From a virus (taxonomy: Duplodnaviria; Caudoviricetes), in IMG/VR virus record IMGVR_UViG_3300012953_000012, positions 128,001 through 192,000 of that record: a stretch of 64,000 bases of DNA. One strand, 5' to 3'. Positions 32,732-61,555 of the stretch are shown here, one piece after another (position 1 is the stretch's first letter; every line of letters begins with the position of its first letter). Both the position numbers and the translations under genes were made by a program. The notes beneath the pieces were generated by a model that did no database searches, was not told the origin of the DNA, and saw nothing but the letters and a program-made list of their open reading frames with translations.

Positions 32732-32810
32732 GTAATCTCCGTTGGCTGCATGGCAGCACTGGGGGAAGGGGAGCAGTCGGAGGGGCCGGGGTGGCTCCCT
32801 CTCTCACATA

Positions 32811-32838
32811 CTTACGGAAGCAGCAGACGGTTTTAACG
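32811..32838 (-). promoter_or_regulatory. Bipartite CGTTAA-N16-CGTAAG element (putative early promoter)
   Basis: One of 9 copies with identical spacing, all intergenic and oriented into the downstream gene. Confidence 0.7.
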
Positions 32839-32969
32839 GGACGGGATCAAAAAAGATCACGGGCCGATTTCTCGCTGGGGCAAGACGCAAAAAACCCGCC
32901 CCCGTGGCAGTCCTGACATCTCTTCCAGAGCAGGACCGCACACGGGGGCGGGAGTAAGTCGGGGCCAGG

Positions 32970-33281
32970 CTACGACCTGGCCTTCTTGATGGCAGCACGG
33001 CCAGCCTTCTCGGCCTCGGCCATGCCGTTGGCGAAGCCGCTGGCGAGGAGCACCTGCGGCGGCCAGCCGCGCCACGCACGACGCTTGTCGTGAGGGCCAC
33101 GGCGCATGACGCGCCAGGCCACAACGCCTTGCTGCCAGTCTTGCACCGACTCCCCGGAGAGGGGGCGGGTGTGGATCTCGCTCTCGCTCTTGTCCGCGTG
33201 GCGGATCGAGTTGGAGCAGTAGGACTGCCAGTCGGCCAACGCCAGGGCGTTGGCGACGGCGTGGATGTCGAGAGTAGGCAT
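32970..33281 (-). CDS. Hypothetical early-type protein
   Basis: GGAGA RBS plus leader hairpin; starts MPTLDIH. Confidence 0.7.
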   Translation of the reverse strand: MPTLDIHAVANALALADWQSYCSNSIRHADKSESEIHTRPLSGESVQDWQQGVVAWRVMRRGPHDKRRAWRGWPPQVLLASGFANGMAEAEKAGRAAIKKARS

Positions 33282-33373
33282 GGGGTCTCCAGTGGCTCCA
33301 GGGGAGCGCGGGGAAGGAGTGGGGAGGTTGGGGGAGGGGGCCTTTGTTTGTCGGTAGGCCCAAACCGCCGGGA

Positions 33374-33916
33374 TCACCCGGCGTGGAAGGAAGCGCAGAG
33401 CACCTTGCCGTGCTCCATGCCCTCGACCGCAGCGCCAATCTCGATCACCTCAAGGGTGTCGATGGCGTCGGTCCAGGAGCCGTACTCCCCCTCGGAAGGG
33501 GAGCCGTCGTACTTGGACACGAAGCAACGCTGGTCGCTGTCCCAGCGGTCGTAGTCGCTGGGGTGGACCCGGCGAGCCAGGTCAGCGGTCGGAGCAGCCA
33601 CGACGAAGCGGCTGTAGGTGTCGTAGCCACCCCGGCAGGTGCGGGTGACTTGCCAGAGGCGCATCGGACCTTCGGTCTCGATGTTGGCCTCGCGCTCGGC
33701 GGCGGCAGCCTCAGCGGCCTCGGCCTGGGCCAGGGCGCGAGCCTCGTCAGCGGCGTGGTTGGCTGCCGCAAGGGCAGCGAGGGCGATGCGACGGCCCTCG
33801 TGGCGGCGAGAGGCGTTCGCCTGGGTCTGGATGAACAGGGCGTAGCCAGCGTCGGAGTACGGGTACTCCATCGCCTTGCGGCGGGTCTCGCCGCGTCGGT
33901 GGTTGATGTGGGGCAT
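33374..33916 (-). CDS. Hypothetical early-type protein
   Basis: AAAGGA RBS plus leader hairpin; Ala-rich helix then a globular domain. Confidence 0.7.
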   Translation of the reverse strand: MPHINHRRGETRRKAMEYPYSDAGYALFIQTQANASRRHEGRRIALAALAAANHAADEARALAQAEAAEAAAAEREANIETEGPMRLWQVTRTCRGGYDTYSRFVVAAPTADLARRVHPSDYDRWDSDQRCFVSKYDGSPSEGEYGSWTDAIDTLEVIEIGAAVEGMEHGKVLCASFHAG

Positions 33917-34105
33917 GGTGTTCCTTTGGCAGCGTGGCTGCACTGGGGGTTGGAAGGGGACGGGCCTTTCACCCGGACGCCACTGTGTCGCGTGGTCCGC
34001 CTCGGCTCTTATATCCCTCGTGGCCTGCTACTAAGTCGAGGTGAACTCGCGGGCCGGGAGTGACCGTTTCCCCCCGTGGGGTCAAGGCGTCTTCCCTTGT
34101 GCTTA

Positions 34106-34133
34106 CTTACGGAAGCAGCGGCCCGGTTTAACG
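34106..34133 (-). promoter_or_regulatory. Bipartite CGTTAA-N16-CGTAAG element
   Basis: Exact consensus and spacing. Confidence 0.7.
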
Positions 34134-34157
34134 GCCAGGCCACAAAAAAAGTGAAAG

Positions 34158-34192
34158 ACCCCCTGCGCCGCGCTTTGCGGAACAGGGGGTCA
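34158..34192 (-). terminator. Probable intrinsic terminator
   Basis: gaccccctg...cagggggtc stem with A-runs on its left. Confidence 0.5.
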
Positions 34193-34349
34193 GCATCACA
34201 CACGCTTCTCCGGGGTCGGTAGTCCGTGCCTCGGCGCGGGGAGCGATGCAGTCAGTGTTGTCGTGTCTTCCAATCAGCCGGAACCTCCTACCGTGGCGCT
34301 ACTACGGAGAAGGGTCGTACAACCACCTCGCTCGACGGCGAGGGGTTCA

Positions 34350-34600
34350 TCACTCTTCGGCGGCGATAGCCATCAGGCTATCGTTCACAGCCTCGACCTC
34401 GGCCACCAACTCCCAGAGTTCGCTGACATTGAGCAGCGAAACTCCGAGGAGCCAGTTCCGGGGTCGCAGGCTACCGAAGACGTCCTTGTGCAGTTCCAGG
34501 TAGTGAAACACCGCCCAGTGAAGGCGGTATCTCGCGTCCCAGGTGCGAACATCGAAGGTGATGCGAAACTCCAGGTTGGGGTTGATGGGGAAGGGTGGAC
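34350..34600 (-). CDS. Hypothetical protein (5' end unresolved)
   Basis: Protein-like C-terminal part (LEFRITFDVRTWD...); no clear RBS or start found. Confidence 0.35.
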
Positions 34601-34880
34601 AAAGTGGTGAGGGACGTGAGAGGTCAAGCGCCACCCGGCCCCTCGTGGGGACCGGATGACGCGACCCTTCTTCACTCCCATGTGAAGTGTGGCCCGTCAG
34701 GGTGGGCCAGTCCCTTCTGCGCCTTGTCGCATTTCGCAGTCGCGTCCCCGTGTGGTGGGATGAAACCCCGCAGTTTCGCTCGCAGGTCGCGCTGTCGGTC
34801 ACGTCGTGAGCACGTCCAGTTTAGCGCCATTGGGAAGGGCGTCCCTCCCCCCCCCGAAGGGGGAAGGGAAGGGGTTGAGC

Positions 34881-35675
34881 CTACGCAGCCACGGTGTCGA
34901 GGATGTTGGCGACCACCGTGGGGTCCACAGTGATGCCAGCGGCATCGGAAGCCGACACAGCCTCAGCGCCGAGGTTCAGGACAAAGTCCGTACCGGGCTC
35001 CAGGCAGTAGGAAACGTAGCGGCGGCTGGGGAGGAGGCGGGTGATGATCCGCTTCGCGACCGTCTTGCCGCCGCTCTTGCTCTGGGGGCGGGCGTACTGG
35101 GCAGCCTCGATGACCTTGCGGCCCACGCGGAGGCCCTGGACGTAGATGGTGCCAGGGGTGCTCGCGGGAGCCTCGTTGGGGTCAGCGGGGCCGACGTAGA
35201 CGCGGTAGCCCTTGAGGGCCTTGCCGTCCACGACCAGGGGCTCGTAGACATGGTCGGTCGTGCTGGTGTTGGTGCCAGCGATGGACTTCGCGGTGCTGGC
35301 GATCATGTCGGCCAGGGCAGCGTCAAAGTCCGCACGGGTCACAGCCACCTGCGTGGCGTTCTTGCCGCGACCGCTCCAGGCCATGTGGCCGTCAGCGACC
35401 ATGGCGTCGAGGTCAGCGCCGGTCAGCGCGTCGAGGATGACAGCATCCTTGCGCTTGAGGGCGGTGTAGGACCGTCCAGCGACGAACGTGTCGCGGACCG
35501 TGTCGTTGCCCATCTGCACCTTCTTGCCACCGCGCTTTTCGCCGGGGGCGAGGCGGGTGACACCCTTGAGGGTGGTGACGACGGACATGAAGGAAGCGCC
35601 CTGGGCGCTACGGCTGCCAGCGACGGCAGCGGCGAGGGTGGAGGAGTTGGCGTTGGTCTTGGTTGCGGTGGTCAT
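34881..35675 (-). CDS. Hypothetical early-type protein
   Basis: AAAGGA RBS plus hairpin plus bipartite motif; strong GC3 codon bias. Confidence 0.75.
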   Translation of the reverse strand: MTTATKTNANSSTLAAAVAGSRSAQGASFMSVVTTLKGVTRLAPGEKRGGKKVQMGNDTVRDTFVAGRSYTALKRKDAVILDALTGADLDAMVADGHMAWSGRGKNATQVAVTRADFDAALADMIASTAKSIAGTNTSTTDHVYEPLVVDGKALKGYRVYVGPADPNEAPASTPGTIYVQGLRVGRKVIEAAQYARPQSKSGGKTVAKRIITRLLPSRRYVSYCLEPGTDFVLNLGAEAVSASDAAGITVDPTVVANILDTVAA

Positions 35676-35749
35676 GATGATGTTCCTTTGGCCCCTGTGG
35701 GGCACTGGGTCTGGGAGCGGAGAGCAGCAGTGTGCCGCCCTCTCACATA

Positions 35750-35777
35750 CTTACGGAAGCAGGAGGGAGTTTTAACG
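35750..35777 (-). promoter_or_regulatory. Bipartite CGTTAA-N16-CGTAAG element
   Basis: Exact consensus and spacing. Confidence 0.7.
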
Positions 35778-35801
35778 AGACAGGGTGAAAGTTTTTTCGG
35801 A

Positions 35802-35842
35802 GATCGCTGAAAACCCCCACAGTGAAGGGGTTTTCAGCGATC
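35802..35842. terminator. 16-bp perfect inverted repeat (terminator-like)
   Basis: gatcgctgaaaacccc-9nt-ggggttttcagcgatc directly after a - strand stop. Confidence 0.65.
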
Positions 35843-35845
35843 CGA

Positions 35846-36151
35846 CTACTTGAGCATCCGGGAGGGGCAGATCACGACATCGCCTACGATGTCTCCCTCA
35901 GGGCCGAAGGCTGCTGAGGCGACCACGTTCTTCGGGAGGCCGTGGAGTCGGCCTTCCTCGTTCATGATCATGATCCGCTTGATCTCGCGGCTCTTGGTCT
36001 TGGGCATCGGGTAGGTCTGGATGTAGCCTCCCACGGCCTTCTGCAACTCTTTGAGTCCGAAGTGCTTGCCGCTCTCGGGGTGGATGGGGGTCACCTTGCC
36101 ATCGGAGGTGATCAGGACAGGTTGGTGCGGGTCGAAGGTGGAAGTAGAGAT
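35846..36151 (-). CDS. DUF3846-like small phage protein
   Basis: LKELQKAVGGYIQ, MNEEGRLHGLPKN..AS, IVGDVVIC; start is either ATC at 36151 or GTG at 36220. Confidence 0.7.
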   Translation of the reverse strand: MSTSTFDPHQPVLITSDGKVTPIHPESGKHFGLKELQKAVGGYIQTYPMPKTKSREIKRIMIMNEEGRLHGLPKNVVASAAFGPEGDIVGDVVICPSRMLK

Positions 36152-36216
36152 AGGAGCCTCCTTGGAAAGGCAGACCCCACCTCTCCAGGAGAGGCGGGGT
36201 CGTAGGGTTGGGGGGA

Positions 36217-36687
36217 TCACTGAGCAGGCTTGAAGCCTACGCGCGGGGTCGGTTCATCAAGCACGACGTACTGGAGGATCTCTTCGGCGTTGCCGTCCTG
36301 GAGCCTCTCCATTTCGGCGGTCAAGAGATCGTTGATGTCGGGGCGCGTCCGAACGGTGGTGACAGTGCGGAAGTACTTGTCGAAGTCAGGGCCGAGATCC
36401 TTGCGGGCCTTCGACCAGTCAGCGCCCTTCAGAGCCTCGTAGCGGGTCTCAGGGAACGTGACGGACACGCGCCCGTTGGACACCTGGTAGGCAACGTGGC
36501 CCGCTCCAGGCTCCCGCTCGGTACGGGCGAGGTCTCGGAGCAACCCTTTGAGGGGTTCCAGAGCGTCCTGGGCCTGTCGAACGTGGCGAGCCAGTTCGAC
36601 AGCGACTTCAGACAGGGAATCAGCACTGCCGCCTCGCTTGGCAAGGTCAGCGGCGTCGTCGAGTAGTTGGTTGAATGGGGTAGTCAT
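36217..36687 (-). CDS. Hypothetical early-type protein
   Basis: GGAGA RBS plus leader hairpin. Confidence 0.7.
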   Translation of the reverse strand: MTTPFNQLLDDAADLAKRGGSADSLSEVAVELARHVRQAQDALEPLKGLLRDLARTEREPGAGHVAYQVSNGRVSVTFPETRYEALKGADWSKARKDLGPDFDKYFRTVTTVRTRPDINDLLTAEMERLQDGNAEEILQYVVLDEPTPRVGFKPAQ

Positions 36688-36765
36688 GGGGTCTCCGGCG
36701 GCTGGGCCGCAACAGGTGACCACAGAGGGTGCGGCAACCCGCACCCCCGTGGCGGGGGGTGGGGG

Positions 36766-37584
36766 TTACTGGGCGAAGCACTCAGGGTGGAACACACCAC
36801 CACCGTCCTCAGCGGGGCGGTAGTGGGCAGTCGATCCAGCCGGGATCGTCTTGCCGCAAGAGTGACAAGGGCAGGCGAAGGGGACCGTGACTCCTGTCGG
36901 GGTCACAGGGACCTCCACCGTGTCTTCGGCAGCAGAGAGGCCCGCAGCCAGGACGAGTTCAGTCTTCGCGTCGAGCGCCGCAGCGACCTCAGCGAAGTCC
37001 GCCATGCCAGCCTGCTGACACAAGCCAGCGAGCGGGCAGGTGCGGCACTGATCGGAGCGGGAAGACCACGCACCGAAGCACCGGGTCTGCTCGGCAGCCA
37101 TGCGCCGCAAGCCCATGTCGGCAGCCTCGTAGCCGACGCTGTTCACAGCATCGGCCTGAGGGGTGAAGGACACGCCGTCCTTCGTGACCACGTTGACGGC
37201 CACAGGAGCGGCCACAGGAGCCTTCGCAGGCTCCTTCGGGGTCTGGACAGGCATCTCGGCCACAGGGGCCTCAGGAGCGGCCACAGGGGCCTCCACAGGC
37301 CCGGAGAGGGCGTAGTAGCCCCGGCGGGGGCAGGTGATCGCGCCTTCGGCCTTCAACTTGCCAGCGGCGAGGGTGACGGCACGCATCCCGCGAGGGTAGG
37401 GCTTCCCCCTCTTGGTCATGTTGCCCCAGGTGTCCCAGCCGGGGAAGGACGGCTGGATCTCACACCAGTTCAGGACGGAGGCGAATCGAATCTCGCCACC
37501 ACACGGGGCGAGTGCTGTAAGGGCGGCGATGACGACGCCCTTCCAGGCGTCGGCGTTGTGGGTCGTGGGGAAAGTGAAGGACAT
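36766..37584 (-). CDS. Protein with a putative N-terminal winged helix and two C-terminal Cys/His zinc sites
   Basis: Mrr-N-like pattern (..LKAEGAITCPRRGYYALS); CFGAW..CRTCPLAGLC; CHSCGKTI..HPEC. Confidence 0.6.
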   Translation of the reverse strand: MSFTFPTTHNADAWKGVVIAALTALAPCGGEIRFASVLNWCEIQPSFPGWDTWGNMTKRGKPYPRGMRAVTLAAGKLKAEGAITCPRRGYYALSGPVEAPVAAPEAPVAEMPVQTPKEPAKAPVAAPVAVNVVTKDGVSFTPQADAVNSVGYEAADMGLRRMAAEQTRCFGAWSSRSDQCRTCPLAGLCQQAGMADFAEVAAALDAKTELVLAAGLSAAEDTVEVPVTPTGVTVPFACPCHSCGKTIPAGSTAHYRPAEDGGGVFHPECFAQ

Positions 37585-37651
37585 GAGGTATCTCCGTTGG
37601 CCCGAGGCGGGCACTGGGTTGGGAGTGGTTGGGAGTGGTTGGGTTCAGGTA

Positions 37652-37679
37652 CTTACGGGAGCAGGAGGCAAGATTAACG
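37652..37679 (-). promoter_or_regulatory. Bipartite CGTTAA-N16-CGTAAG element
   Basis: Exact consensus and spacing. Confidence 0.7.
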
Positions 37680-37721
37680 CCCACGGGGTCACTTTTTTCA
37701 GTGACCCCGTGGGCGTCGGGT

Positions 37722-38927
37722 CTACAGGTCCTCGTCAGCGAACACGCCACCAGTGACGTGAGCGTCGATCAGGGACTTGGCGATCAGCCGGTTGTCGGGG
37801 TCGAGCCGGTCAAGCCAGGCCCGGAAGCCCTTCTTGAGCAGACCCTTCGGCGGGGTGCCCTTCCCGAACCACAGGAGATCATCACACTCGGCAAGGATCT
37901 CGCAGAGTCCCCGGTGAGTGAGGTCAGCCTCCAGGTCCACCGTGGACTCGCCACGGATCGCGTTGCGGATCGCCACGGTAGCAGCCCCCAACTCATCGAA
38001 GACCAGGGGAGCCTTCGCAGCGAGGTCAGCAAACTTGCCTCGCAGGATGGCACCCTCGTCCTTCCAGTCGAGGTATTCGGCCTCCACGAAGCGGCCCATG
38101 CGGTCAAGCAGGGACGCATCCATGACCCGAGAGGACATGCGACCGTCCACGTCACCGGTCCCGCAGGAGTTCGCCGTGAAGGCGAAGCGGGTGCCGGGGA
38201 ACAGGGTGTGAACCTGACCCGTGGGGCCGACGAGCCGCTTGCTGGTGGTGTCCAGCATCAGCCGGAACTCTTCCAACTGCTCAGGCGTGCCACGGTCCAC
38301 GTCGCTGAAACAGATCAACGCGGGGTGGCGGCTGCCGTCTGCGGCCTGGATGCCGTGGATCAGCGCGTCCCAGAGGATGCCGTAGGACCAGGAGGTCCCG
38401 TTGGCACCGATCTCGCGGCTGTAAAACCACCGCTTCACGTCGGTGCCCGACGTGAACGTGTAGATCAGGCTCGGAGTGCGCGTGTCGGCGCAGAAGGCCG
38501 AGATCGCGGCGTCCTTACCGGTGCCCGAGGGACCCCAGTAAAAGACAGGGTGGCCACGACGCAGCGCCAGGACGACCCGGCGGGTGCGCTCCAGCGCCTT
38601 CCCGCAGGAGGGCCACTGGTAGCCTTCGGGCTTCGGAAGGCACTGGCCCTCCGCGATGGCCACGTTGACAGGGGCCTTGACGCCCATCATGTCGTGACTG
38701 AGGGTGGCGAGAGCCGGGGCCGGGGATCGGCGCTGACCCTTGCGCTTGTCCTTCACACCCTGGATCAGGGCGTGGCTGACAGTGGCAGCACCGGGGTGAG
38801 CGGAGAGGTAGTCGGCCACCGAGAGGCCGTGGGCCTCACGAAGGTGGTCGAGGAGGGAGTGTGACTTGTGGCCACAGCCAGGGACCTGGCAGACGACGCG
38901 GTCGTCAACGAGTTTCAAAGCAGTCAT
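37722..38927 (-). CDS. MoxR/CbbQ/CobS-like AAA+ ATPase with N-terminal C2H2 zinc finger
   Basis: Walker A GPSGTGKD, Walker B variant ICFSDVDR, FTANSCG, DASLLDRM; CQVPGC..HLREAH. Confidence 0.85.
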   Translation of the reverse strand: MTALKLVDDRVVCQVPGCGHKSHSLLDHLREAHGLSVADYLSAHPGAATVSHALIQGVKDKRKGQRRSPAPALATLSHDMMGVKAPVNVAIAEGQCLPKPEGYQWPSCGKALERTRRVVLALRRGHPVFYWGPSGTGKDAAISAFCADTRTPSLIYTFTSGTDVKRWFYSREIGANGTSWSYGILWDALIHGIQAADGSRHPALICFSDVDRGTPEQLEEFRLMLDTTSKRLVGPTGQVHTLFPGTRFAFTANSCGTGDVDGRMSSRVMDASLLDRMGRFVEAEYLDWKDEGAILRGKFADLAAKAPLVFDELGAATVAIRNAIRGESTVDLEADLTHRGLCEILAECDDLLWFGKGTPPKGLLKKGFRAWLDRLDPDNRLIAKSLIDAHVTGGVFADEDL

Positions 38928-38988
38928 GGTAGTGTTCCTTTGGCCGCTCAGTGCGGCTCTGGGGGATGGAGGGAAATGCTCTCAGGTA

Positions 38989-39016
38989 CTTACGGAAGCA
39001 GGGGACGGTTTTAACG
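38989..39016 (-). promoter_or_regulatory. Bipartite CGTTAA-N16-CGTAAG element
   Basis: Exact consensus and spacing. Confidence 0.7.
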
Positions 39017-39036
39017 CCGCCCCCCTGAAAAAAGTC

Positions 39037-39420
39037 TCAAAGGCCGAACATCTCGGCCATGTCGCGGAGCAGGAGGTACTCGTTGCGACGTGCGGTGATG
39101 TACCGCTGCCCCACAGCAACGATGTGCTTGCAGGGACGACCGTTGCGGCCAAAGTCCTTGCAGGTGCAGGACATGGACCGGGTACGGCCTCGGACAGGAC
39201 CGGCGATGACGACGGTGTAGACCTTGTCGGACGTGGCCGACTCGACGGTGGCCCGGATGGCTCCTGTCTTCTTGCTCTCGGTCGCCTTGACGATGGCGAC
39301 AGTAGCGGCTCGCTCGGTGCGGCGACCGCAGGCACCGTCCAGCATGATGCGGACGGCCTTGCCACGCTCAACGAGCGTGGCCTTGCGCTGCTCAATGTCA
39401 GCGGTGGTGATGGTGTTCAT
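39037..39420 (-). CDS. SWIM zinc-finger protein
   Basis: YTVVI...SCTCKDF...PCKHIVAV. Confidence 0.8.
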   Translation of the reverse strand: MNTITTADIEQRKATLVERGKAVRIMLDGACGRRTERAATVAIVKATESKKTGAIRATVESATSDKVYTVVIAGPVRGRTRSMSCTCKDFGRNGRPCKHIVAVGQRYITARRNEYLLLRDMAEMFGL

Positions 39421-39446
39421 GGGGTGCTCCAGAAGGGGTTCATGGT

Positions 39447-39474
39447 CTTACGGGAGCAGGGGGAGGTTTTAACG
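39447..39474 (-). promoter_or_regulatory. Bipartite CGTTAA-N16-CGTAAG element
   Basis: Exact consensus and spacing. Confidence 0.7.
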
Positions 39475-39644: not shown

Positions 39645-39672
39645 CGTTAAAACATGCGGCTGCTTCCGTAAG
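39645..39672 (+). promoter_or_regulatory. Bipartite CGTTAA-N16-CGTAAG element
   Basis: Exact consensus on +, divergent from the 39447 copy. Confidence 0.7.
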
Positions 39673-39734
39673 TACCTGACACCAATCACCCACCACTTCA
39701 CCCTGCGCCGCGACGAGCGGCCATCGGAGAGACC

Positions 39735-40853
39735 ATGCCTACGAAGCAAGCCGCCCCACGGGGCACGACGACCCTCAGTGGTCGCAAGTGGATCGGAGCC
39801 GCCCAGGCTTCGGTCGATTCAATCCTGGGGGATGCGTCCCCCAAAGTCTCCAGCCGTGGAGGCTCGTTCTTCAACGTCAACCGCTGGACCGCCCGGATCC
39901 TGTTCGGTCGGCTGACCGAGAGCATCAAGTACGGCAACGAGATGGACGAGACCACCGTCCGCAACGGTCTCGACCTGGCCAACGGCACCAAGGTGCCCAA
40001 GCGCGAGATCGTGATCGCTGCGGTTCCTGACCGCATCCCGCCCTGGCTGGCACGGTCCTCCGTTGGAGGCCGCTACCACGAGGCGTGGCATGATCTCTAC
40101 TCGTGTACGCGGGACCTGACCTTCGACGAGGTCAACGGGCCGCTGATGGCTCGCTGGGATCTGCTCGACGACTGGGGTCCTTTCGTTGGCGCTGTCCTCA
40201 CCTGGGGCAACGTGATCGAGGACATCCGCATCGAGCGTCACGGCTGCCGGGAGTTTCCCGGCTCCCAGGACAAGATGGAAGACCTCCAGGACTTGATCCT
40301 GGTCATGGAGTCCGAGGGCCGGACGGCTGCGGAGCACCGTGGTCTGCCTACCAACGACGACATGGCTGTGGTCATGGGCGCGTTCCGTGATCTCGGTCTG
40401 GGCTACCAGACTGAGAAGCAGGAGGCCGCGCTCGCTGGCTACCAGAAGCGGTCGCCCGCTGGCTGGCGGCTCGTCACTGAGGGACCGTTGAAGCCTCTCC
40501 TGGACCGTGCCATCACCATGGGCCGGGACGATGACCTGGGTCACTGGTGGCTCGCCATGGAGGTCGTGGCTGTGCTGGCATCCCTCGGGAAGCAGACTCA
40601 GCAGCAGCCTCCACCCCCTGGCGGCGAAGGCGACGAAAGCCAGCCCCCGCCTCCCGGACCTCCGAGTGATTGTGACGACTCGGATGGTGAGAGCGGCAAG
40701 GGCAAGCCTCCCCGGTTCCCCCTGTTCAAGGTGGGTGATCGTGCGAAGGCGAAGCGTGGAGCCTACGCGGGCAAGATCGTCGAGGTGACCTTCGCTGGTC
40801 CTCCCGACGAGGAAGGCCGCCAGAGCCTCAAGTTTGCCGTCGTCGAAGATTGA
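39735..40853 (+). CDS. vWA-associated putative zinc metallopeptidase (CobT N-terminal-like)
   Basis: YHEAWH (HExxH) plus NVIEDIRIE third-ligand motif. Confidence 0.7.
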   Translation: MPTKQAAPRGTTTLSGRKWIGAAQASVDSILGDASPKVSSRGGSFFNVNRWTARILFGRLTESIKYGNEMDETTVRNGLDLANGTKVPKREIVIAAVPDRIPPWLARSSVGGRYHEAWHDLYSCTRDLTFDEVNGPLMARWDLLDDWGPFVGAVLTWGNVIEDIRIERHGCREFPGSQDKMEDLQDLILVMESEGRTAAEHRGLPTNDDMAVVMGAFRDLGLGYQTEKQEAALAGYQKRSPAGWRLVTEGPLKPLLDRAITMGRDDDLGHWWLAMEVVAVLASLGKQTQQQPPPPGGEGDESQPPPPGPPSDCDDSDGESGKGKPPRFPLFKVGDRAKAKRGAYAGKIVEVTFAGPPDEEGRQSLKFAVVED

Positions 40854-40872: not shown

Positions 40873-40900
40873 CGTTAAAACGGTCGCCGGTTTCCGTAAG
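40873..40900 (+). promoter_or_regulatory. Bipartite CGTTAA-N16-CGTAAG element
   Basis: Exact consensus and spacing. Confidence 0.7.
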
Positions 40901-40957
40901 TATGTGAACCCCTTCCCCCTACCCCCAGACGCCCATCGAGGGCGCACAGGAGATCCC

Positions 40958-42604
40958 ATGACTACTTCCATTTTGACCAGCCTGATGCGGCTGGGTGCCG
41001 AGATCTTCGGCAGCAACGAAGACCTCACCATGCTTCCCAAGGACGACCAGTCCGGCGGCGGCGATGGTGAGTCTGATGACGACGACTCGGACCAGGACGG
41101 CGACGATGCCGATGAGTCCGGTGGCGACCAGGACGACAGCGATGCTGGCGACCAGGACGGTGACCAGGACGGTGACCAGGACGACCAGTCCGGCGACGAT
41201 GCCGATGGCGAGTCCGGCGAGTCTGGCGATGACCAGGACGACACCGATGGTGACGGCTCTGGTGAGTCCGGCGATGACACCGATGGTGACGAAGGCCAGG
41301 ACGACGACGGCGACGACGGCGACGAGTCCAACGGTTCCGATGACGGTTCCGAGGGCGACGAGTCCGGCGACCAGCCCGGTGACGAGTCCGGTGACTCTGG
41401 CGAGGGCGACGGCTCCGACAAGACCGACGACAGCGACAGCGGCGAGCAGACCGACGACGTTGATCCCCAGTCTGACAAGACCGCTGGCGGCTTTGATCCT
41501 GGCGAGGACTTCGCTGACGCCATGGTCGATGGCCTCAAGGCCCCCCAGGATCACATCAAGGACGCGGCTGACGCGCTGGCCGAAGCCACGGACAAGTGCC
41601 GCGACGAAGACGATGTTCACCCTGGTGAGCAGGTCTGGCGTCCCTACAACCCTGAGGCGGACGTCATCGTCAAGCCGAAGGGCGACCGAGAGTCGGCTGA
41701 GACCCTGCGGAAGGAGGCCAAGTTGCTGACCGCTGCCCTCCGCACACAGTTTCGGCGTCGGTTCCTGGCTGCGAAGAACCCCCGTGAACAGCACGGTGTT
41801 CGGCGCGGCAAGGACCTCTCCGAGCGTCGGCTCGTGGAGTCGTTCGTCGAGATCAAGTCCGGCGTGCGCCCCAGCCGCCCCGACTTCAAGGTCGAGTCCC
41901 AGAGGGACGTATCCCTGGCCCTCGGCGTCGTGATCGACCAGTCCGGCTCCATGCACGGTCGCGAGCAGCACGCTGCTGCGGTGGCTGCCCTGGCACTGGC
42001 TGAGTCCTTCGACTCCCTGAACTCCCCTGTGATGGTCTGCGGACCTCGCAACAGTGGGCGGGACGTTCGACGGGCGGACACCGGCTACTACACGGACATC
42101 GACAACGACGACAGCCACACCGGCAGCGTCGATGTGATGCGAGGTCCGAGGTGTCACCGCTACGTCGCCACGGCCATCGACCTGTTCATGGACTGGGACG
42201 AGTCCTTCAAGCAGGTCAAGCACCGCTTCAGCAACGTCCGGGCTACGGGCTCCACGCCCCTGTCTGACGGCATCCAGTTCGCCATGCAGGAGTTGTCCAA
42301 CCGCCCTGAGCGTCACCGGATCATCGTGGTCCTGACGGACGGGGAGCCGGACAACTCCGCTGTGGTGACCCGCCAGATCCGCCTGGCTCGTGAGGCCGGG
42401 ATCACCGTGATCGGTGTCGGCATCAGCGGGGCCGAGTACGCGGTCCCCCGCCTGTTCGTTGACCACCACATCGTCGTCAACGACCTCACGGAGTTGCCGA
42501 AGGCGATGATGGCTGTCGTCGGTGCCATCGTGTTCCCCCGGAGTGCCAAGAAGGCGGTCCTGGACGGGCGCATCGGCACCCGGCGGCAACGTCGGCGGGC
42601 GTAG
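40958..42604 (+). CDS. vWA-domain protein with long acidic linker (CobT/NorD-like C-terminal half)
   Basis: MIDAS DQSGSM, STP, VLTDGEP; ~140-aa D/G/S/E tract. Confidence 0.85.
   Translation: MTTSILTSLMRLGAEIFGSNEDLTMLPKDDQSGGGDGESDDDDSDQDGDDADESGGDQDDSDAGDQDGDQDGDQDDQSGDDADGESGESGDDQDDTDGDGSGESGDDTDGDEGQDDDGDDGDESNGSDDGSEGDESGDQPGDESGDSGEGDGSDKTDDSDSGEQTDDVDPQSDKTAGGFDPGEDFADAMVDGLKAPQDHIKDAADALAEATDKCRDEDDVHPGEQVWRPYNPEADVIVKPKGDRESAETLRKEAKLLTAALRTQFRRRFLAAKNPREQHGVRRGKDLSERRLVESFVEIKSGVRPSRPDFKVESQRDVSLALGVVIDQSGSMHGREQHAAAVAALALAESFDSLNSPVMVCGPRNSGRDVRRADTGYYTDIDNDDSHTGSVDVMRGPRCHRYVATAIDLFMDWDESFKQVKHRFSNVRATGSTPLSDGIQFAMQELSNRPERHRIIVVLTDGEPDNSAVVTRQIRLAREAGITVIGVGISGAEYAVPRLFVDHHIVVNDLTELPKAMMAVVGAIVFPRSAKKAVLDGRIGTRRQRRRA
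41050..41470 (+). repeat. Low-complexity coding repeats (GACCAGGACGGT-type) encoding the Asp/Gly linker
   Basis: Repeated DQDG/DESGD units. Confidence 0.8.
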
Positions 42605-42958: not shown

Positions 42959-42986
42959 CGTTAAAAGTGCCTCCTGCTTCCGTAAA
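42959..42986 (+). promoter_or_regulatory. Bipartite element variant (CGTTAA-N16-CGTAAA)
   Basis: One mismatch, same spacing. Confidence 0.65.
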
Positions 42987-43059
42987 GAGACACAGGGCAG
43001 CACCGCCCACCACCCTCTGCCCCGTTGGGGGCCTGGCCCACTGAGGCCCAAAGGAACCT

Positions 43060-43212
43060 ATCGCTACCAACGACCCCATCGTCCTCCCCACCGTCCCTGC
43101 CACCCCTTCCCTCATTGACCTGGCCAACCAGGCCGAAGACGCCCAGGTCGAAGCCCTGACCCCGGAGCAGGTCGAAGCCCTGCTCCGTCGCTTCACGCAG
43201 ATGCTCGACTGA
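43060..43212 (+). CDS. 50-aa ORF with an ATC codon at the start position
   Basis: Promoter-like element, hairpin and AAAGGA RBS, then ATC; followed by a terminator. Confidence 0.45.
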   Translation: MATNDPIVLPTVPATPSLIDLANQAEDAQVEALTPEQVEALLRRFTQMLD

Positions 43213-53992: not shown

Positions 53993-54029
53993 GGCGGTAT
54001 CTCCTGCCTCTGCCGAGGCGATAGAGACC

Positions 54030-58411: not shown

Positions 58412-58612
58412 TTAGAATCGTGTGCTGAAACGCTTCTTGCACTTCTGGCAGCGGTAGTGGATGGCGGTCCCACCTCCCTGGTCAGGAGAGAGGTCCTGGA
58501 CCATAAGGATCACAGCCTGGTTGCCATCACAGAGTTCACTGACCCGGCAAGAGACCCACTTGGTCTCACCGACCGTTTTCTTCACCCGGTTGCTGAACTT
58601 ACTCATGGTCAC
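58412..58612 (-). CDS. Small zinc-ribbon protein
   Basis: CRVSELC...YRCQKC. Confidence 0.6.
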   Translation of the reverse strand: MTMSKFSNRVKKTVGETKWVSCRVSELCDGNQAVILMVQDLSPDQGGGTAIHYRCQKCKKRFSTRF

Positions 58613-58660
58613 CTTCCTCCATGTGGAGACATACCCACATGACCCGAGAGGTGACCCCCC

Positions 58661-59164
58661 TCAATAGCCTTGGGAGACAGCCCGAGCCTTGATGATCCCG
58701 GACAACTGCTGCAAGTAGTCACCAACCTCGTACTGGTACAACCCCCCGACAGCCGCAGTGCTGTGGGAAGAAGTCCCAACCACAGCGCCAGCAGGGTACT
58801 GCACCTGTCCTCCGCTCTGGGGGATCAGGACATTCGTAGGCAGAGTCAGGGTGTCTCCCGTAGAGGGATCAACACCGGCCCACCAGTTTGTTCGCAGGTC
58901 GTCCACCACAGGAACCACGACGTTTTGCCACTGAGTCCAGTGGACCCACACAGGAAGACTGCCCCTCAAGGTAGGGATGGTGTCAGGAAGCGGTTCGATC
59001 CCGATGATCCCCACCTTCACAGATGGGTTGGAACGATCTGTACCAGGGAACACAGGCTTGGCGTGTCCCTTGACCAGCAGAAAGATCGGGATGGGGAGCA
59101 GATCAGCCAACTCCGTGGCTGTCCTCACAGGGGCTATGCCCGTTCGATAGTCAGCCCGTGCCAT
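58661..59164 (-). CDS. Hypothetical late-type protein
   Basis: AGGAGGA RBS; CCGTAG-N5-CTAT at 59190-59204. Confidence 0.65.
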   Translation of the reverse strand: MARADYRTGIAPVRTATELADLLPIPIFLLVKGHAKPVFPGTDRSNPSVKVGIIGIEPLPDTIPTLRGSLPVWVHWTQWQNVVVPVVDDLRTNWWAGVDPSTGDTLTLPTNVLIPQSGGQVQYPAGAVVGTSSHSTAAVGGLYQYEVGDYLQQLSGIIKARAVSQGY

Positions 59165-59763
59165 GGTTCCTCCTACAGCGAGGGGTCCGATAGACGGACT
59201 ACGGAGAGGATCACAGGATCACTCGTCGCGGGTGTCGTTGTACTACTACTTGTATGCGTATGGGGTGTCTGGTGGTTGGTGGTTGTCGTGTCATTCATCG
59301 TGAGTGTCTTATTCAATCGGTCAACCTACGGTTTCCCTACTCCTAAGAGAAGGTAGTACTCCTTCTCTCGGTCCCTCTCCTTGTGTGTCAGTGGAGAGGG
59401 CTGAGGATGCCTGGCTGAAGAACCTGACCCTTGAACACGGCTCGCTTGTGGATCCCCCTGACTCCCTTCCCAGTTGGGTGGTCAGGTTGTGGGAAGCACA
59501 AGGCCGAGTAGGCTGGCTCCGAAGACCCGCTCCTGTGGGGGAGGTAGGGTCAACCCTTCATCGGTTCCGTCGTGAGAAAGATCGTGTGACTGAGGCTGTT
59601 CCTTGACCTTCGGGTTTCCCCGATCCCGCACCGAGGGACCTCAAGCGAGCACACGATCTGACGAACCGGCCCATCCTGTTTCCCCCAGCCTGAGACTGGT
59701 GTCACGGGTAGTATCTACTCGACAGCAGGGCTCCGAGCAACCCCCCTGTGTGAGGATGGCCTT

Positions 59764-60075
59764 GTGTACCACGTTTGGATTGTGACGAGCCGCGATCTGG
59801 AACCGATCCAGTTGGGTGCTTCCTTCACTGACGAGCAGGATGCACTGGGGGCCGCATCAGGCACTCTCACCGCGATGGGTGCTGCTGTCCTGGCTGCCCG
59901 GAACGCCTACAGGAACGGGTCGTTGACCTTGCTGGTGTACGACCCCACTGGCCTGTTGCCCGTGAGCGCCTTCGTGGAGGGCGCAGTCCTGTCGGAGAAC
60001 GGTCGCAGCCTTCCCCCCAACGAGACTACCGAAACCATCGTCACGCGCCTCGTGGAGGGCGCGGAGGTCCACTGA
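59764..60075 (+). CDS. Hypothetical protein
   Basis: Protein-like ORF converging on the next gene; start uncertain. Confidence 0.5.
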   Translation: MYHVWIVTSRDLEPIQLGASFTDEQDALGAASGTLTAMGAAVLAARNAYRNGSLTLLVYDPTGLLPVSAFVEGAVLSENGRSLPPNETTETIVTRLVEGAEVH

Positions 60076-61365
60076 CTACCGGGCTACGAAGGTGTCACCC
60101 CAGCCTTTGCGGACGAGGCCCTGAATGTCGAGGTAGGCCAGGCACCGGTCGAGTCGTGGCTGGTCCATCCGCAGCGCCTCCTTGATTTCCTTCTTGGTGG
60201 ACCACGGCTCCATGCGGAGCAGGGCCAGAGTGTTTTGGGCATCTTCACGAGTCTGGATGCCTTCGCGCAACGCCGCCCGGACCTTGCTCCGGTTGGTGAG
60301 GGCACGGGTCACCGAGCACTCGTCCATGTCGGCAATCTCCTCGGCACTCGCTCCTGCGATCATGGCGTCGTACACAGCAGTGTACCGCTCGACTGCGCCC
60401 CGGAACGCGGAGGCAACGATCTCCCGACCGACTCGGACCATCTCCTCTCGGTCCCGGTGAGTTGCGACCTCGTCCTCAGGGGTCATGCTGGGGTCCACCA
60501 GGACATGCTCCACAACCAGGTCCCCTTCGTCGGGCTTCATTCGGATGACCTCGATGTCCCCTGCCACCAGGCTCTCAGGGGCGACATAGTCCTCCTGACC
60601 GAGTTCAATGCGTTGGTTGATCTCATGCTGGGTGCGAGCGCCGCGCTGACGGGCAAGAGCGTCCTGAGCGGACTTGTAGATGGAAGAGGTGCGCTTGCGC
60701 TCCAATGCCCGGCACAACCACGAGAACGGGACCGCGCCCTTCTCCTTGATGACGGCATCGAACGTGCCCTTCTGTCCCCAGGTTGCCAACCACAGGCCAG
60801 CGTCTGAACGGAGGTCATCGAAGTCAGCATGGACATCGCGCTTCGCCAACATCGCGGCAAGTCGTTTGATGAGGCCGTGCTCCGCGATCTGAACCGCCAG
60901 CCACTCTTGGGTCAGGGTGGTGGAGGCAGCGGGAGCCTTCACAGGAGCCGCAGGAGCCTCGACAGGGGCTTCCTCGACCACAGGCTCCGGTGCAGCCTCG
61001 ACAACGGGCTCGACAGGCTGTGGGGTCTCGACGGGGGTTGAGTCGGTGTTGCTCTCCGGGAGCACGTCGAGGACGATCTCGCGGTCTCCGTCACGGAGGG
61101 TGGCGAGCAGGGTCTCGGGCTGACCTCGGAGGGCAGCGAGTAGAGCGGATGCAAAGCGGGTCTGAGCCCCAGCGCCCTTGAAGCCATTTTGGAGCACGAG
61201 GTCACGGCGCACGATGCTGCGCTTGCGGCCCTGCTCTTCGGCGGTGGCGGTGATCCAGACGCTGATCTCTCGCTCGACCGAGGCGTCGTCCTCGGGAGTG
61301 GCGGTGAAGCCGCTGATCAGGTTGGTGAGGAGGGCGAGACGGCGTGGGGTGGTCTTGATAGACAT
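60076..61365 (-). CDS. Putative sigma-70/ECF-like factor with extra N-terminal domain and C-terminal winged helix
   Basis: Region-2-like DFDDLRSDA.LWL...FD..PFSW; region-4-like GASAEEIADMDECS..A...R.K..AALR; terminal wHTH ..LAYLDIQGLV. Confidence 0.55.
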   Translation of the reverse strand: MSIKTTPRRLALLTNLISGFTATPEDDASVEREISVWITATAEEQGRKRSIVRRDLVLQNGFKGAGAQTRFASALLAALRGQPETLLATLRDGDREIVLDVLPESNTDSTPVETPQPVEPVVEAAPEPVVEEAPVEAPAAPVKAPAASTTLTQEWLAVQIAEHGLIKRLAAMLAKRDVHADFDDLRSDAGLWLATWGQKGTFDAVIKEKGAVPFSWLCRALERKRTSSIYKSAQDALARQRGARTQHEINQRIELGQEDYVAPESLVAGDIEVIRMKPDEGDLVVEHVLVDPSMTPEDEVATHRDREEMVRVGREIVASAFRGAVERYTAVYDAMIAGASAEEIADMDECSVTRALTNRSKVRAALREGIQTREDAQNTLALLRMEPWSTKKEIKEALRMDQPRLDRCLAYLDIQGLVRKGWGDTFVAR

Positions 61366-61555
61366 GGCGTTCCTGGGTTTGCCAGCAGGGCTGGTCATGC
61401 GATGGTTTTTTCGATCAGGTCAGGACAGGCGACAGTGCTACAAGGAGCGGGTCTTTGGTCGTGACCCTTCGGTTGTAGCATGGGAGGAGCGGCGGGTCAA
61501 CCCGGTTTGGCCACTTTTGTCCCACTTTGCTCCACGTCCCCCGATTAGCGTTGCT

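What the first reader, a model, noticed from the sequence alone, without database searches (positions are those of the whole stretch)
32745..61394. Sequence-variable, structure-conserved 5-bp hairpin just upstream of the RBS of ten early-type genes
Seen (sense strand): GCTGC-cat-GCAGC (32745), GCTCC-cct-GGAGC (33295), GCAGC-cac-GCTGC (33929), GCCCC-aca-GGGGC (35691), GCGGC-cca-GCCGC (36698), GCCCG-cct-CGGGC (37600), GCCGC-actga-GCGGC (38943), GCCGC-gacga-GCGGC (39707), CGCCC-atcga-GGGCG (40930), CCAGC-cct-GCTGG (61382). Each is followed within a few nt by C(A)nnGGA(G/A) plus the start codon, and is often preceded by CCCAG(T)-like C-rich sequence. Stems covary while stem length stays at 5 bp with a 3- or 5-nt loop. 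Inference: a leader RNA element (translation enhancer, RNase shield or binding site of a phage regulator). The 5-bp/3-nt geometry also resembles N4 vRNAP DNA-hairpin promoters, an alternative reading.
Basis: partly seen in the sequence, partly recalled or inferred. Interest (0 to 1): 0.65.

Follow-up and report, generated by a model that had tools for sequence, protein, structure and literature searches.

The report
Early-gene leader RNA hairpin, huge phages
A group of uncultured huge marine phages puts the same tiny RNA hairpin, kept by compensating mutations, about four bases in front of the ribosome-binding site of roughly a dozen early genes, so it is a real and apparently undescribed control tag on early messages whose exact job is still unproven.

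Summary

The element is a module. A G-free, C-rich tract of about 20-25 nt ends in CCC-A-G-T. Then comes a 5-bp GC stem with a 3- or 5-nt loop, then CAA(C), a minimal GGAG/AGGA site and ATG. In the 205-kb phage record, 12 of 16 genes behind the phage's own bipartite promoter (GTTAAAA-N-TTCCGTAAGTA) carry it, against 1 of 205 other genes.

The hairpin is conserved before orthologous genes in at least 15 related phage contigs (56-96% protein identity). All five pairs show compensatory changes and none is broken. It matches no Rfam family.

It is therefore a selected RNA structure in early-mRNA translation-initiation regions. My best guess (about 40%) is a shared operator or docking tag, read by a trans-acting protein or the ribosome platform. 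The rivals are a purely cis standby-site element, an mRNA stability or processing signal, and a nut-like site.

The N4-type DNA-hairpin promoter reading is not supported.

This scan has noted analogous, non-homologous leader hairpins before on other phage and plasmid DNA.

The parts
32729..32767 (-). Leader module 1. Hairpin 32745-32757 is GCTGC-cat-GCAGC, followed by CAAC-GGAG and the ATG of gene 32234-32731.
   Evidence: sequence; model, 38.2 bits.
33279..33317 (-). Leader module 2. Hairpin 33295-33307 is GCTCC-cct-GGAGC, before gene 32970-33281. No promoter copy lies nearby, so this is probably an internal gene of an operon.
   Evidence: (35.5 bits).
33914..33951 (-). Leader module 3. Hairpin 33929-33941 is GCAGC-cac-GCTGC, before gene 33374-33916. 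The promoter lies about 170 nt upstream.
   Evidence: (32.3 bits).
35673..35713 (-). Leader module 4. Hairpin 35691-35703 is GCCCC-aca-GGGGC, before gene 34881-35675.
   Evidence: (41.0 bits). The orthologue L008:4248-4289 keeps the stem with the loop agcaa.
36685..36720 (-). Leader module 5 (peripheral member). Hairpin 36698-36710 is GCGGC-cca-GCCGC, only 1 nt from GGAG, before gene 36217-36687. It has no nearby promoter and no G-free tract.
   Evidence: The model does not recover it in this genome. The orthologous copy L008:5171-5210 is GCGGC-cct-GCCGC and scores 26.5 bits.
37582..37622 (-). Leader module 6. Hairpin 37600-37612 is GCCCG-cct-CGGGC, before gene 36766-37584.
   Evidence: (40.6 bits). 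In 14 orthologous leaders, 13 fold the hairpin at the same place.
38925..38967 (-). Leader module 7. Hairpin 38943-38957 is GCCGC-actga-GCGGC, before the AAA_5/CobS-like ATPase gene 37722-38927.
   Evidence: (43.2 bits). Orthologue test: five of five pairs show compensatory changes.
39697..39737 (+). Leader module 8. Hairpin 39707-39721 is GCCGC-gacga-GCGGC, before gene 39735-40853.
   Evidence: (39.7 bits).
40920..40960 (+). Leader module 9. Hairpin 40930-40944 is CGCCC-atcga-GGGCG, before the CobT/VWA-like gene 40958-42604.
   Evidence: (31.8 bits). The orthologue in L008 has GCCCC-acag-GGGGC.
61363..61404 (-). Leader module 10 (peripheral member). Hairpin 61382-61394 is CCAGC-cct-GCTGG, 7 nt from AGGA, before gene 60076-61365. 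It sits behind a sigma70-like promoter, not the bipartite one.
   Evidence: The model does not recover it. The same hairpin is kept in two relatives, but without covariation.
23621..23665 (-). Possible extra member. Hairpin 23640-23655 is GCCCC-acttcc-GGGGC, followed by CAC-AGGAG and an ATG at 23621-23623.
   Evidence: 24.4 bits, E about 0.004.
43035..43062 (+). Variant copy. GGCC-cactga-GGCC is followed by CAA-AGGA. The open frame that follows begins with ATC, not ATG.
32804..32837 (-). Bipartite promoter copy (GTTAAAA-N-TTCCGTAAGTAnnTGA) feeding module 1.
34107..34132 (-). Bipartite promoter copy feeding module 3 through a long leader.
35743..35776 (-). Bipartite promoter copy feeding module 4. 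It is followed by a 10-bp hairpin near the predicted 5' end.
37645..37678 (-). Bipartite promoter copy feeding module 6.
38982..39015 (-). Bipartite promoter copy feeding module 7.
39440..39473 (-). Bipartite promoter copy before gene 39037-39420. Its leader is short, G-free and has no hairpin.
39646..39679 (+). Bipartite promoter copy feeding module 8.
40874..40907 (+). Bipartite promoter copy feeding module 9.
42960..42985 (+). Bipartite promoter copy feeding the variant hairpin at 43035.

Best explanation
Shown. The element is an RNA hairpin, selected for its structure, inside the translation-initiation region of the phage's early-class messages. Reading 5' to 3' on the mRNA, the module has these parts:
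- a G-free, C-rich single-stranded tract of about 20-25 nt, ending CCC-A-G-N;
- a 5-bp GC stem with a C-rich 5' arm and a G-rich 3' arm, about -7.4 kcal/mol, with a loop of 3 nt or of 5 nt ending in GA;
- C-A-A, then a minimal 4-nt Shine-Dalgarno site 3-5 nt after the stem;
- the AUG, 13-16 nt after the stem.

Inferred (about 40%). The hairpin is a common tag, or operator, that one trans-acting partner recognises by shape plus the conserved flanks. The partner would be a phage or host RNA-binding protein, or the 30S platform itself. In this way the translation, and with it the lifetime, of the whole early gene set would be set together.

The G-free tract would have two jobs. It would let the tag fold on its own. 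It would also give the ribosome enough single-stranded standby surface for the hairpin to cost nothing in initiation.

That the element is a functional leader RNA structure I hold at about 0.9. The 0.4 below is for the operator or tag mechanism.
For: Structure under selection:
- The 55 nt before the orthologous AAA-ATPase gene were chosen by gene position only, in 14 phages. RNAalifold finds only this 5-bp helix there. All five pairs show double changes and none is broken.
- In 63 model hits, 98.7% of cells pair against 71% in shuffles and 27-56% in slid controls. There are 66 double-change cells against 13 in shuffles.
- There are three U.G pairs and no A.C pair.

Tie to translation start, not to the promoter:
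- The hairpin-to-SD distance is 3-5 nt in 55 of 63 copies, and hairpin-to-AUG is 13-16 nt in 54 of 63.
- The promoter-to-hairpin distance ranges from 8 to about 170 nt.

Regulon-like distribution:
- 12 of 16 promoter-class genes carry the element, against 1 of 205 others (Fisher 1e-15).
- One more copy sits on a sigma70-type leader.

Constraints beyond pairing, which suggest recognition by a partner:
- the stem is almost always exactly 5 bp;
- G at -2 in 53 of 63 copies, C at +1 in 59 of 63, A at +2 in 55 of 63;
- the pentaloop ends in GA, and this holds in every copy in the more distant lineages.

Other points:
- Hairpin genes have uniformly minimal SD sites (-6.3 against -8.0 kcal/mol, p = 0.003).
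- The standby-site model of PMC3936740 uses As = 15 + P + D - H. This module gives As of about 34, so no penalty. Without the tract As would be about 12, which by my arithmetic is roughly a 3 kcal/mol penalty.
- Precedents exist for protein-read hairpins at phage ribosome-binding sites and for early-mRNA regulons: the T4 gene 43 operator and RegA (PMC3014915).
Against: - No binding protein was identified. Pfam and PHROGs show no RNA-binding domain in the neighbouring early proteins, and no S1-domain gene is present in the record.
- Orthologous copies switch between 3-nt and 5-nt loops, which is awkward for a loop-reading protein.
- G at -2 is lost in the more distant lineages.
- One promoter-class gene does without the hairpin entirely.
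- No transcript ends, binding data or expression data exist for these uncultured phages.
Confidence: 0.4

Rival explanations
1. Purely cis-acting translation element. The short hairpin and the G-free tract together form a fixed standby-site module, or insulator. It gives every early gene the same local ribosome-loading context whatever lies upstream, and no dedicated trans factor is involved.
For: - The module's geometry (P about 4, D about 20-25, H about 7) lies on the no-penalty plateau of the standby model.
- The whole region from the tract to the second codon is G-poor apart from the stem and the SD.
- Loop identity is loosely constrained in the near clade.
- The hairpin is predicted to fold with P > 0.8 in 11 of 14 leaders.
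Against: - An unstructured leader would load ribosomes equally well, so this idea does not explain why a hairpin is kept by compensatory change over roughly 50% protein divergence.
- It does not explain the fixed 5-bp length, the conserved C-A-A and G(-2) flanks, or the GA loop end.
- Forbidding the hairpin in silico changes predicted SD accessibility only modestly and inconsistently.
Confidence: 0.25
2. mRNA stability or processing signal. Either the hairpin shields the coding region from 5'-to-3' attack, or the leader is cut at the conserved CCCA-G-U just before the stem. A cut there would leave the mature message starting with a protective 5'-terminal hairpin.
For: - A conserved G sits 2 nt before the stem in an otherwise G-free tract (53 of 63 copies). 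A cut there would leave no more than 2 unpaired nt before the stem, the classic requirement for 5' stem-loop stabilisers (my own knowledge of the ompA work).
- Several leaders also carry a separate hairpin right after the promoter, so these phages do use 5' structures.
Against: [quoted passage not shown]
- A barrier would not need a fixed 5-bp length or a 3-5 nt spacing to the SD.
- No nuclease candidate was found, and no 5' ends are known.
Confidence: 0.15
3. Transcription-level signal in the nascent RNA. This would be a boxB-like site for a processive antiterminator, one per early promoter, or a pause hairpin that holds RNA polymerase near the start codon.
For: - There is roughly one hairpin per early promoter.
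- A 5-bp stem with a 5-nt loop matches the geometry of lambda and P22 boxB (my own knowledge).
- Several loops are G-N-N-G-A.
- The stem base lies 10-17 nt before the AUG, close to the hairpin-to-3'-end distance of hairpin-stabilised pauses.
Against: - The position is tied to the SD, not to the promoter or to any terminator.
- Loop sequence is not conserved, and a third of the copies have 3-nt loops.
- No boxA-like conserved word lies upstream; only the composition is conserved.
- Two copies lie inside operons without a promoter.
Confidence: 0.07
4. N4-type promoter. The hairpin extrudes in the DNA and is read by a virion-delivered single-subunit RNA polymerase.
For: - 21 of 63 copies have a 5-bp stem and a 3-nt loop, as N4 early promoters do.
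- With the commonest 4-nt spacer, the N4 rule would start the RNA at the first G of GGAG.
- The window opens with a 3824-aa ORF of unknown function.
Against: - The bases N4 vRNAP reads (-11 purine, -10 G, -8 G on the template strand; PMC4496689) are not conserved. Template-strand -8 would be C in 37 copies and G in 21, and triloop centres are mixed.
- 37 of 63 loops are 5 nt.
- Hairpin-to-SD spacing varies from 2 to 7 nt (1 nt at site 5), so starts would fall inside or after a conserved, correctly spaced SD.
- A conserved bipartite promoter already lies upstream.
- U.G wobbles favour RNA.
- The giant ORF has no Pfam, PHROG or PDB match and no T7-type motif B.
- PF00940 found nothing in the record. 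Its control search also found nothing, so that result says little.
Confidence: 0.02
5. By-product of cassette shuffling. The hairpin would simply travel with a duplicated promoter-leader cassette, as in PeSL elements, and have no role of its own.
For: - Identical hairpin-plus-flank copies stand before unrelated genes: GCCCC-aca-GGGGC twice and GCCGC-actga-GCGGC twice.
- The layout of terminator-like T-run, promoter, leader and SD recalls PeSL cassettes (PMC2839356).
Against: - Ten different stems occur among 14 copies, all perfectly paired.
- Compensatory changes occur at orthologous sites.
- This pattern needs selection on pairing and is not explained by copying alone.
Confidence: 0.03

Closest known systems
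Start-associated sequences (SAS) and extended SAS of Cluster K mycobacteriophages (PMC3203893)
   Same: - A repeated motif sits at the translation starts of 11-19 non-structural genes per phage.
- About half of the copies have an inverted repeat just upstream.
- It is orientation-specific and conserved gene by gene among relatives.
- Its function is unknown, and a role in translation initiation is suspected.
   Different: - SAS is a conserved 13-bp sequence, and ESAS is a 17-bp imperfect inverted repeat with a lineage-specific consensus and a 4-13 bp spacer.
- Here the stems are 5 bp, free in sequence and kept by covariation, and only the flanks and the loop end are conserved.
- There is no sequence relation between the two.
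T4/RB69 gene 43 translational operator, and the T4 RegA early-mRNA regulon (PMC3014915)
   Same: - A small hairpin lies 5' of, and adjoining, the ribosome-binding site of a phage message and is read by a protein that represses translation (gp43).
- One protein controls many early messages at their initiation regions (RegA).
   Different: - The gp43 operator is a single autoregulatory site with a conserved loop.
- RegA sites have no defined hairpin.
- Here about a dozen genes share a structured site, loops vary, and no protein is known.
PeSL (promoter-early stem-loop) cassettes of T4-type phages (PMC2839356)
   Same: Repeated regulatory cassettes stand before small early genes of unknown function. 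Each has a strong early promoter, a GC stem-loop and an SD at the 3' end.
   Different: - PeSL stem-loops sit within or next to the promoter and act as terminators or attenuators.
- Here the hairpin is downstream of the promoter at variable distance, is fixed relative to the SD, and has no U-run.
Structured standby-site modules of bacterial 5' UTRs (PMC3936740; tisB standby site PMC6690012)
   Same: A single-stranded tract plus a hairpin lies upstream of the SD. The lengths of the tract, the hairpin and the proximal spacer together set ribosome loading.
   Different: Those are synthetic or single-gene cases. None is a conserved multi-gene phage motif, and the model gives no reason for keeping a hairpin.
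Lambda-type nut sites (boxA-boxB)
   Same: A 5-bp stem with a 5-nt loop lies in the leader RNA, one per early promoter (my own knowledge).
   Different: - boxB has a conserved GNRA-like loop and a boxA partner, and has no fixed relation to an SD.
- None of these holds here.
N4 virion-RNA-polymerase hairpin promoters (PMC4496689)
   Same: 5-7 bp stem, 3-nt loop, upstream of early genes.
   Different: - The required bases are absent.
- Most loops are 5 nt.
- The start site would destroy the SD.
- No vRNAP was found.

Membership tests
N4-type vRNAP hairpin promoter | Hairpin with a 5-7 bp stem and a 3-nt loop | tested here: not met
   The stem length fits, but only 21 of 63 copies have a 3-nt loop and 37 of 63 have 5 nt.
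N4-type vRNAP hairpin promoter | Conserved template-strand bases: -11 purine, -10 G, -8 G, +1 C (PMC4496689) | tested here: not met
   The corresponding alignment columns are variable. At -8 the sense strand is G in 37, C in 21 and A in 5 copies. Triloop centres are A or C on the sense strand.
N4-type vRNAP hairpin promoter | The phage encodes a giant virion RNA polymerase with a T7-like core | tested here: inconclusive
   The 3824-aa ORF has no Pfam, PHROG or PDB match and no motif B. PF00940 found nothing, but its control also failed to ring, and the record is only about 46% complete.
N4-type vRNAP hairpin promoter | Transcription starts a fixed 5 nt after the stem, giving a usable message | tested here: not met
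   The stem-to-SD distance is 1-7 nt across the copies, so the predicted starts fall in or after the conserved SD. No 5' ends have been measured.
Lambda-type nut site (boxA-boxB) | boxB loop of conserved GNRA-like sequence | tested here: not met
   The loops are of 3 or 5 nt and vary. Only the terminal GA of the pentaloops is conserved.
Lambda-type nut site (boxA-boxB) | Conserved boxA word a few nt upstream | tested here: not met
   Upstream tracts share composition, not sequence. Motif counts equal those of shuffles.
Lambda-type nut site (boxA-boxB) | An N-like arginine-rich antiterminator protein | not tested
   No search was made for one. The small early proteins have no recognisable domains.
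Protein-read translational operator (T4 gp43 / RegA type) | RNA site adjoining or overlapping the ribosome-binding site | tested here: met
   The hairpin ends 3-5 nt before the SD in 55 of 63 copies.
Protein-read translational operator (T4 gp43 / RegA type) | A specific protein binds the site and changes translation | not testable with these tools
   This needs binding and reporter assays. No candidate protein was found.
PeSL cassette | Stem-loop placed within or beside the early promoter and acting as a terminator | tested here: not met
   The hairpin lies 8-170 nt downstream of the promoter, has no U-run and is fixed to the SD.
SAS/ESAS of Cluster K mycobacteriophages | Conserved 13-bp start-associated sequence, with or without 17-bp sequence-conserved inverted repeats | tested here: not met
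   Only a 4-nt SD core and the C-A-A flank are shared here. The stems are 5 bp and variable in sequence.
5'-terminal stem-loop mRNA stabiliser (ompA type) | Hairpin within a few nt of the transcript's 5' end | tested here: inconclusive
   It is not met relative to the start inferred from the bipartite promoter, which lies 8-170 nt upstream. It would be met only if the leader is processed at -2. No 5' ends are known.
Any Rfam family | Match to a curated covariance model | tested here: not met
   There is no relevant match at E <= 1 over window 30000-64000.

The most novel reading that the evidence does not exclude
The hairpin would be the structured operator of a regulon-wide translational switch. 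One phage-made, or virion-delivered, RNA-binding protein would recognise the 5-bp stem with its C-A-A flank on every early message. It would turn the whole early programme on or off together. That would be a structured counterpart of T4 RegA in a clade of uncultured huge marine phages, and a new and compact RNA-protein recognition pair.
Probability: 0.3. Interest if true: 0.7.

Novelty: new variant of a known kind. Interest (0 to 1): 0.55.

Why it matters
How huge phages time their gene expression is almost unknown, because none of this clade is cultured.

This work defines a small, testable RNA signal that marks one temporal class of messages. Covariation evidence for it comes from more than a dozen genomes.

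It pairs with a phage-specific promoter. Together they give a complete 'early expression cassette': promoter, G-free standby tract, hairpin and minimal SD.

If a protein reads the tag, it would be a new post-transcriptional regulon and a potential orthogonal RNA-protein tool. If the tag acts alone, it is a natural example of an insulated ribosome-loading module.

This scan has turned up similar but unrelated hairpins in other phages and a plasmid. SD-adjacent leader hairpins on early genes may therefore be a general, under-described theme.

Tried and rejected
1. A second helix that sequesters the SD. RNAfold often pairs GGAG with CUCC or UCC words in the tract. This pairing is no better than chance:
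   - whole tract: -4.70 against -4.90 +/- 0.17 in shuffled tracts;
   - proximal flank: -3.00 against -2.94 +/- 0.16 in shuffles, and -2.92 +/- 0.07 with permuted partners.
   Rejected.
2. A G(-2):C(+1) pair with a bulged base. Neither position covaries, and G(-2) is lost in distant lineages while C(+1) stays. Not supported.
3. MAFFT plus RNAalifold on a second set of orthologues, the gene after the ATPase, gave no consensus structure. The cause was register shifts between 3-nt and 5-nt loops. Folded singly, 13 of 14 show the hairpin at the same place.
4. The G-free tract as a single-subunit RNA polymerase promoter. Its sequence is too variable, and in one copy it is only about 9 nt long. Rejected.
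5. Searches that found nothing useful:
   - megablast against phage records;
   - exact promoter pattern in viral contigs, single chance hits only;
   - relatives in GTDB genomes;
   - Rfam;
   - S1 domain;
   - T7-type polymerase (control silent);
   - Pfam and PHROGs on the early proteins: only AAA_5, VWA/CobT, SWIM and DUF3846.
Distant relatives were fetched instead with a profile scan of viral contigs.

Full report
**Where the window lies**

The window is bases 128001-192000 of a 205,564-bp IMG/VR virus record. GC content is about 62%. CheckV rates the record 46% complete, so this is a fragment of a huge phage. I called genes with a codon-usage model trained on the record's own long ORFs. 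This gave 221 genes covering 92% of the sequence.

All ten hairpins have the stated coordinates, stems and loops. Each is on the sense strand of the next gene.

Read on that strand, the copies share more than a hairpin:
- a C-rich tract that ends in CCC-A-G-T;
- a 5-bp GC stem;
- a loop of 3 nt (CAT, CCT, CAC, ACA, CCA) or 5 nt (ACTGA, GACGA, ATCGA);
- C-A-A/C;
- GGAG or AGGA, then 5-8 nt, then ATG.

A scan that ignored the gene calls found four more clear copies elsewhere in the record, at genome positions 78659, 94142, 94272 and 95208. A 4-bp variant lies at 39418.

Chance does not explain this:
- 20 of 220 genes have a perfect 5-bp hairpin ending 10-17 nt before the start;
- dinucleotide shuffles give 5.7 +/- 2.5;
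- other upstream offsets and a coding control are at background.

**Link to a promoter class**

About 17 copies of a bipartite element, GTTAAAA-N(9-16)-(T/C)CCGTAAGTAnnTGA, occur in the record, nine of them in the window. I confirmed the motif and its copy number, but not its timing.

Twelve of the 16 genes within 260 nt downstream of this element carry the hairpin, as judged by the covariance model. Only 1 of 205 other genes does (Fisher p about 1e-15).

The distance from promoter to hairpin runs from 8 to about 170 nt. The distance from hairpin to SD is 3-5 nt in 55 of 63 copies, and to the AUG 13-16 nt in 54 of 63. The hairpin therefore belongs to the translation start, not to the promoter.

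Site 10 (61382) sits behind a different, sigma70-like promoter (TTGACC-N17-TACAAC). It is kept in two relatives, so the element is not strictly bound to one promoter type.

**Relatives and covariation**

I used the AAA_5/CobS-like ATPase that follows hairpin 7 as the probe. It found one IMG/VR relative at 90% identity and one at 60%. It also found 16 metagenome loci at 56-92% identity, one of them on a 552-kb contig. A further protein, 96% identical, lies on a 258,585-bp contig binned as a Planctomycetaceae MAG. That is only a weak hint at the host.

I took the 55 nt before the orthologous start codon in 14 distinct phages. The choice used gene position only, without looking for hairpins. RNAalifold predicted one structure, the 5-bp helix. 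Every pair showed compensatory double changes and there was no broken pair. The fourth pair is C-G in 7, G-C in 4 and U-A in 3 sequences.

A covariance model built from 58 copies gave these results:
- It recovered 13 copies in this record at E <= 2e-4, plus two weaker matches.
- It found 63 copies across the loci.
- On that alignment 98.7% of cells pair, against 71% after shuffling partners and 27-56% when the 3' arm is slid.
- There are 66 double-change cells against 13 in shuffles.

That alignment was fitted to the structure, so one search is the cleaner test. The only non-Watson-Crick pairs that are not register artefacts are three U.G wobbles, and there is no A.C. This fits RNA of the sense strand rather than a DNA cruciform.

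**How far the element reaches**

A profile scan brought in phages whose ATPase is 31-59% identical.
- The hairpin module is present at 59% identity: six model hits in 11 kb, and 11 in the whole 297-kb record.
- It is present at 52%: three hits, with stem TCTCCC/GGGAGA.
- One phage at 42% shows a look-alike by eye (TCTCTC-aca-GAGAGA).
- The model finds none in a 288-kb record at 48%, nor in any more distant locus.

It is thus a trait of one clade, with roughly 10-15 copies per genome.

**Constraints beyond pairing**

- From about -25 to -3 the tract is nearly free of G, about 5% against 31% in the genome.
- Positions -6 to -4 are C in 42-47 of 63 copies.
- G stands at -2 in 53 of 63 copies.
- After the stem come C (59 of 63), A (55) and A (52).
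- The 5' arm is C-rich and the 3' arm G-rich, 208 C against 79 G in the 5' arm. The G depletion therefore runs into the stem.
- Pentaloops end in GA. In the more distant lineages every copy is a pentaloop of this kind. In the near clade about half the copies have C/A-rich triloops, and orthologous sites can switch class.
- Stem stability is narrow, -7.4 +/- 1.4 kcal/mol.
- Hairpin genes have uniformly short SD sites, -6.3 against -8.0 kcal/mol for other genes (p = 0.003).

**What it is not**

- Rfam has no match.
- The N4 reading fails. By PMC4496689, N4 vRNAP needs -11 purine, -10 G and -8 G on the template strand and starts 5 nt after the stem. Those bases vary here, most loops are 5 nt, and starts would fall in or after a conserved, correctly spaced SD.
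- The 3824-aa ORF at the window's start shows no polymerase signal.
- A second helix hiding the SD is no better than chance.
- A bare stem-loop is a poor block to RNase E scanning (PMC9943677).

**How it most likely works**

What is shown is a structure-selected RNA hairpin fixed at the 5' edge of the ribosome-binding site of one class of messages. What follows is inference.

The combination of these features points to recognition by a partner rather than to simple folding:
- exact stem length;
- conserved flanks and loop end;
- regulon-like distribution.

The G-free tract fits the standby-site model of PMC3936740. With P about 4, D about 20-25 and H about 7, the accessible surface is about 34. 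That is well above the value of about 21 at which the penalty vanishes. Without the tract the surface would be about 12, which by my arithmetic from the published formula costs roughly 3 kcal/mol. The tract therefore looks like compensation that lets ribosomes load despite a hairpin kept for another reason.

I put the shared operator or docking tag at about 40%. My estimates for the rivals are:
- a purely cis module: 25%;
- stability or processing: 15%;
- a transcription-level signal: 7%;
- cassette by-product: 3%;
- N4-type promoter: 2%.

**Comparison with known systems**

- The closest published analogue is the SAS/ESAS repeats at the gene starts of Cluster K mycobacteriophages, whose function is also unknown (PMC3203893). 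They are conserved in sequence, and longer.
- T4's gene 43 operator and RegA regulon are the nearest mechanistic models (PMC3014915).
- PeSL cassettes share the repeated-cassette logic but place their stem-loop at the promoter, where it acts as a terminator (PMC2839356).
- Earlier notes of this scan describe analogous, unrelated SD-adjacent leader hairpins in T4-like phages, a jumbo Erwinia phage, giant myxobacterial phages and an Acinetobacter plasmid. I did not test those.

**Limits**

There are no transcript ends, expression data or binding data. Gene timing is inferred from promoter class.

Noticed in passing
window 29-11503 (+): A 3824-aa ORF has good coding statistics but no match in Pfam, PHROGs or PDB sequences, and no T7-type polymerase motif B. 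Its function is unknown.
   Followed up: partly
window 61470-61560 (-), upstream of gene 60076-61365: A sigma70-like promoter, TTGACC-N17-TACAAC, lies about 100 nt before the start. It is conserved in two relatives (L084, L086).
   Followed up: partly
window 35712-35742 (-) and 32770-32803 (-); also L008 leaders: Several early leaders begin, right after the promoter's TGA, with a separate 6-10 bp hairpin of variable sequence. In relative L008 almost every leader has one. This is a likely 5'-terminal stem-loop, distinct from the SD-adjacent hairpin.
   Followed up: partly
window 42960-43212 (+): A promoter copy and two hairpins are followed by a 50-codon open frame. The only in-frame start at the right distance from AGGA is ATC (43060-43062). 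This may be a non-canonical start or a decayed gene.
   Followed up: no
window 36725-36775 (-): A strong long hairpin (about 15 bp, GUAACCC...GGGUUGC) lies between genes 36766-37584 and 36217-36687, just upstream of hairpin 5. It is conserved in relative L008. It may be an attenuator or terminator without a U-run.
   Followed up: no
window 54005-54045 (-), 59165-59200 (-); genome 69640-69700 (+): The late-type motif (C)GGTAG-N5-CTAT noted earlier in this scan is often followed at once by its own small hairpin, or overlaps one, and a strong AGGAG(G) site follows. Late leaders therefore also seem to start with a structure.
   Followed up: no
upstream of most promoter copies, e.g. window 37679-37715 (-), 39016-39040 (-): A T-run, often inside a short GC hairpin (for example GGGGTCAC-tgaaaaaa-GTGACCCC), lies about 10 nt before the promoter's GTTAAAA box. 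It could be a terminator of the preceding unit or an UP-like element, as in PeSL cassettes.
   Followed up: no
window 39037-39420 (-) and 35846-36220 (-): Two small early-block proteins have recognisable domains. One has a SWIM zinc finger (E 5e-8) and the other DUF3846 (E 3e-9). The other hairpin-led proteins have no family match.
   Followed up: no
protein P0001 (MBQ73383.1): A 96%-identical ATPase lies on a 258,585-bp contig deposited as part of a Planctomycetaceae MAG. This is probably the same phage binned with a possible host.
   Followed up: partly
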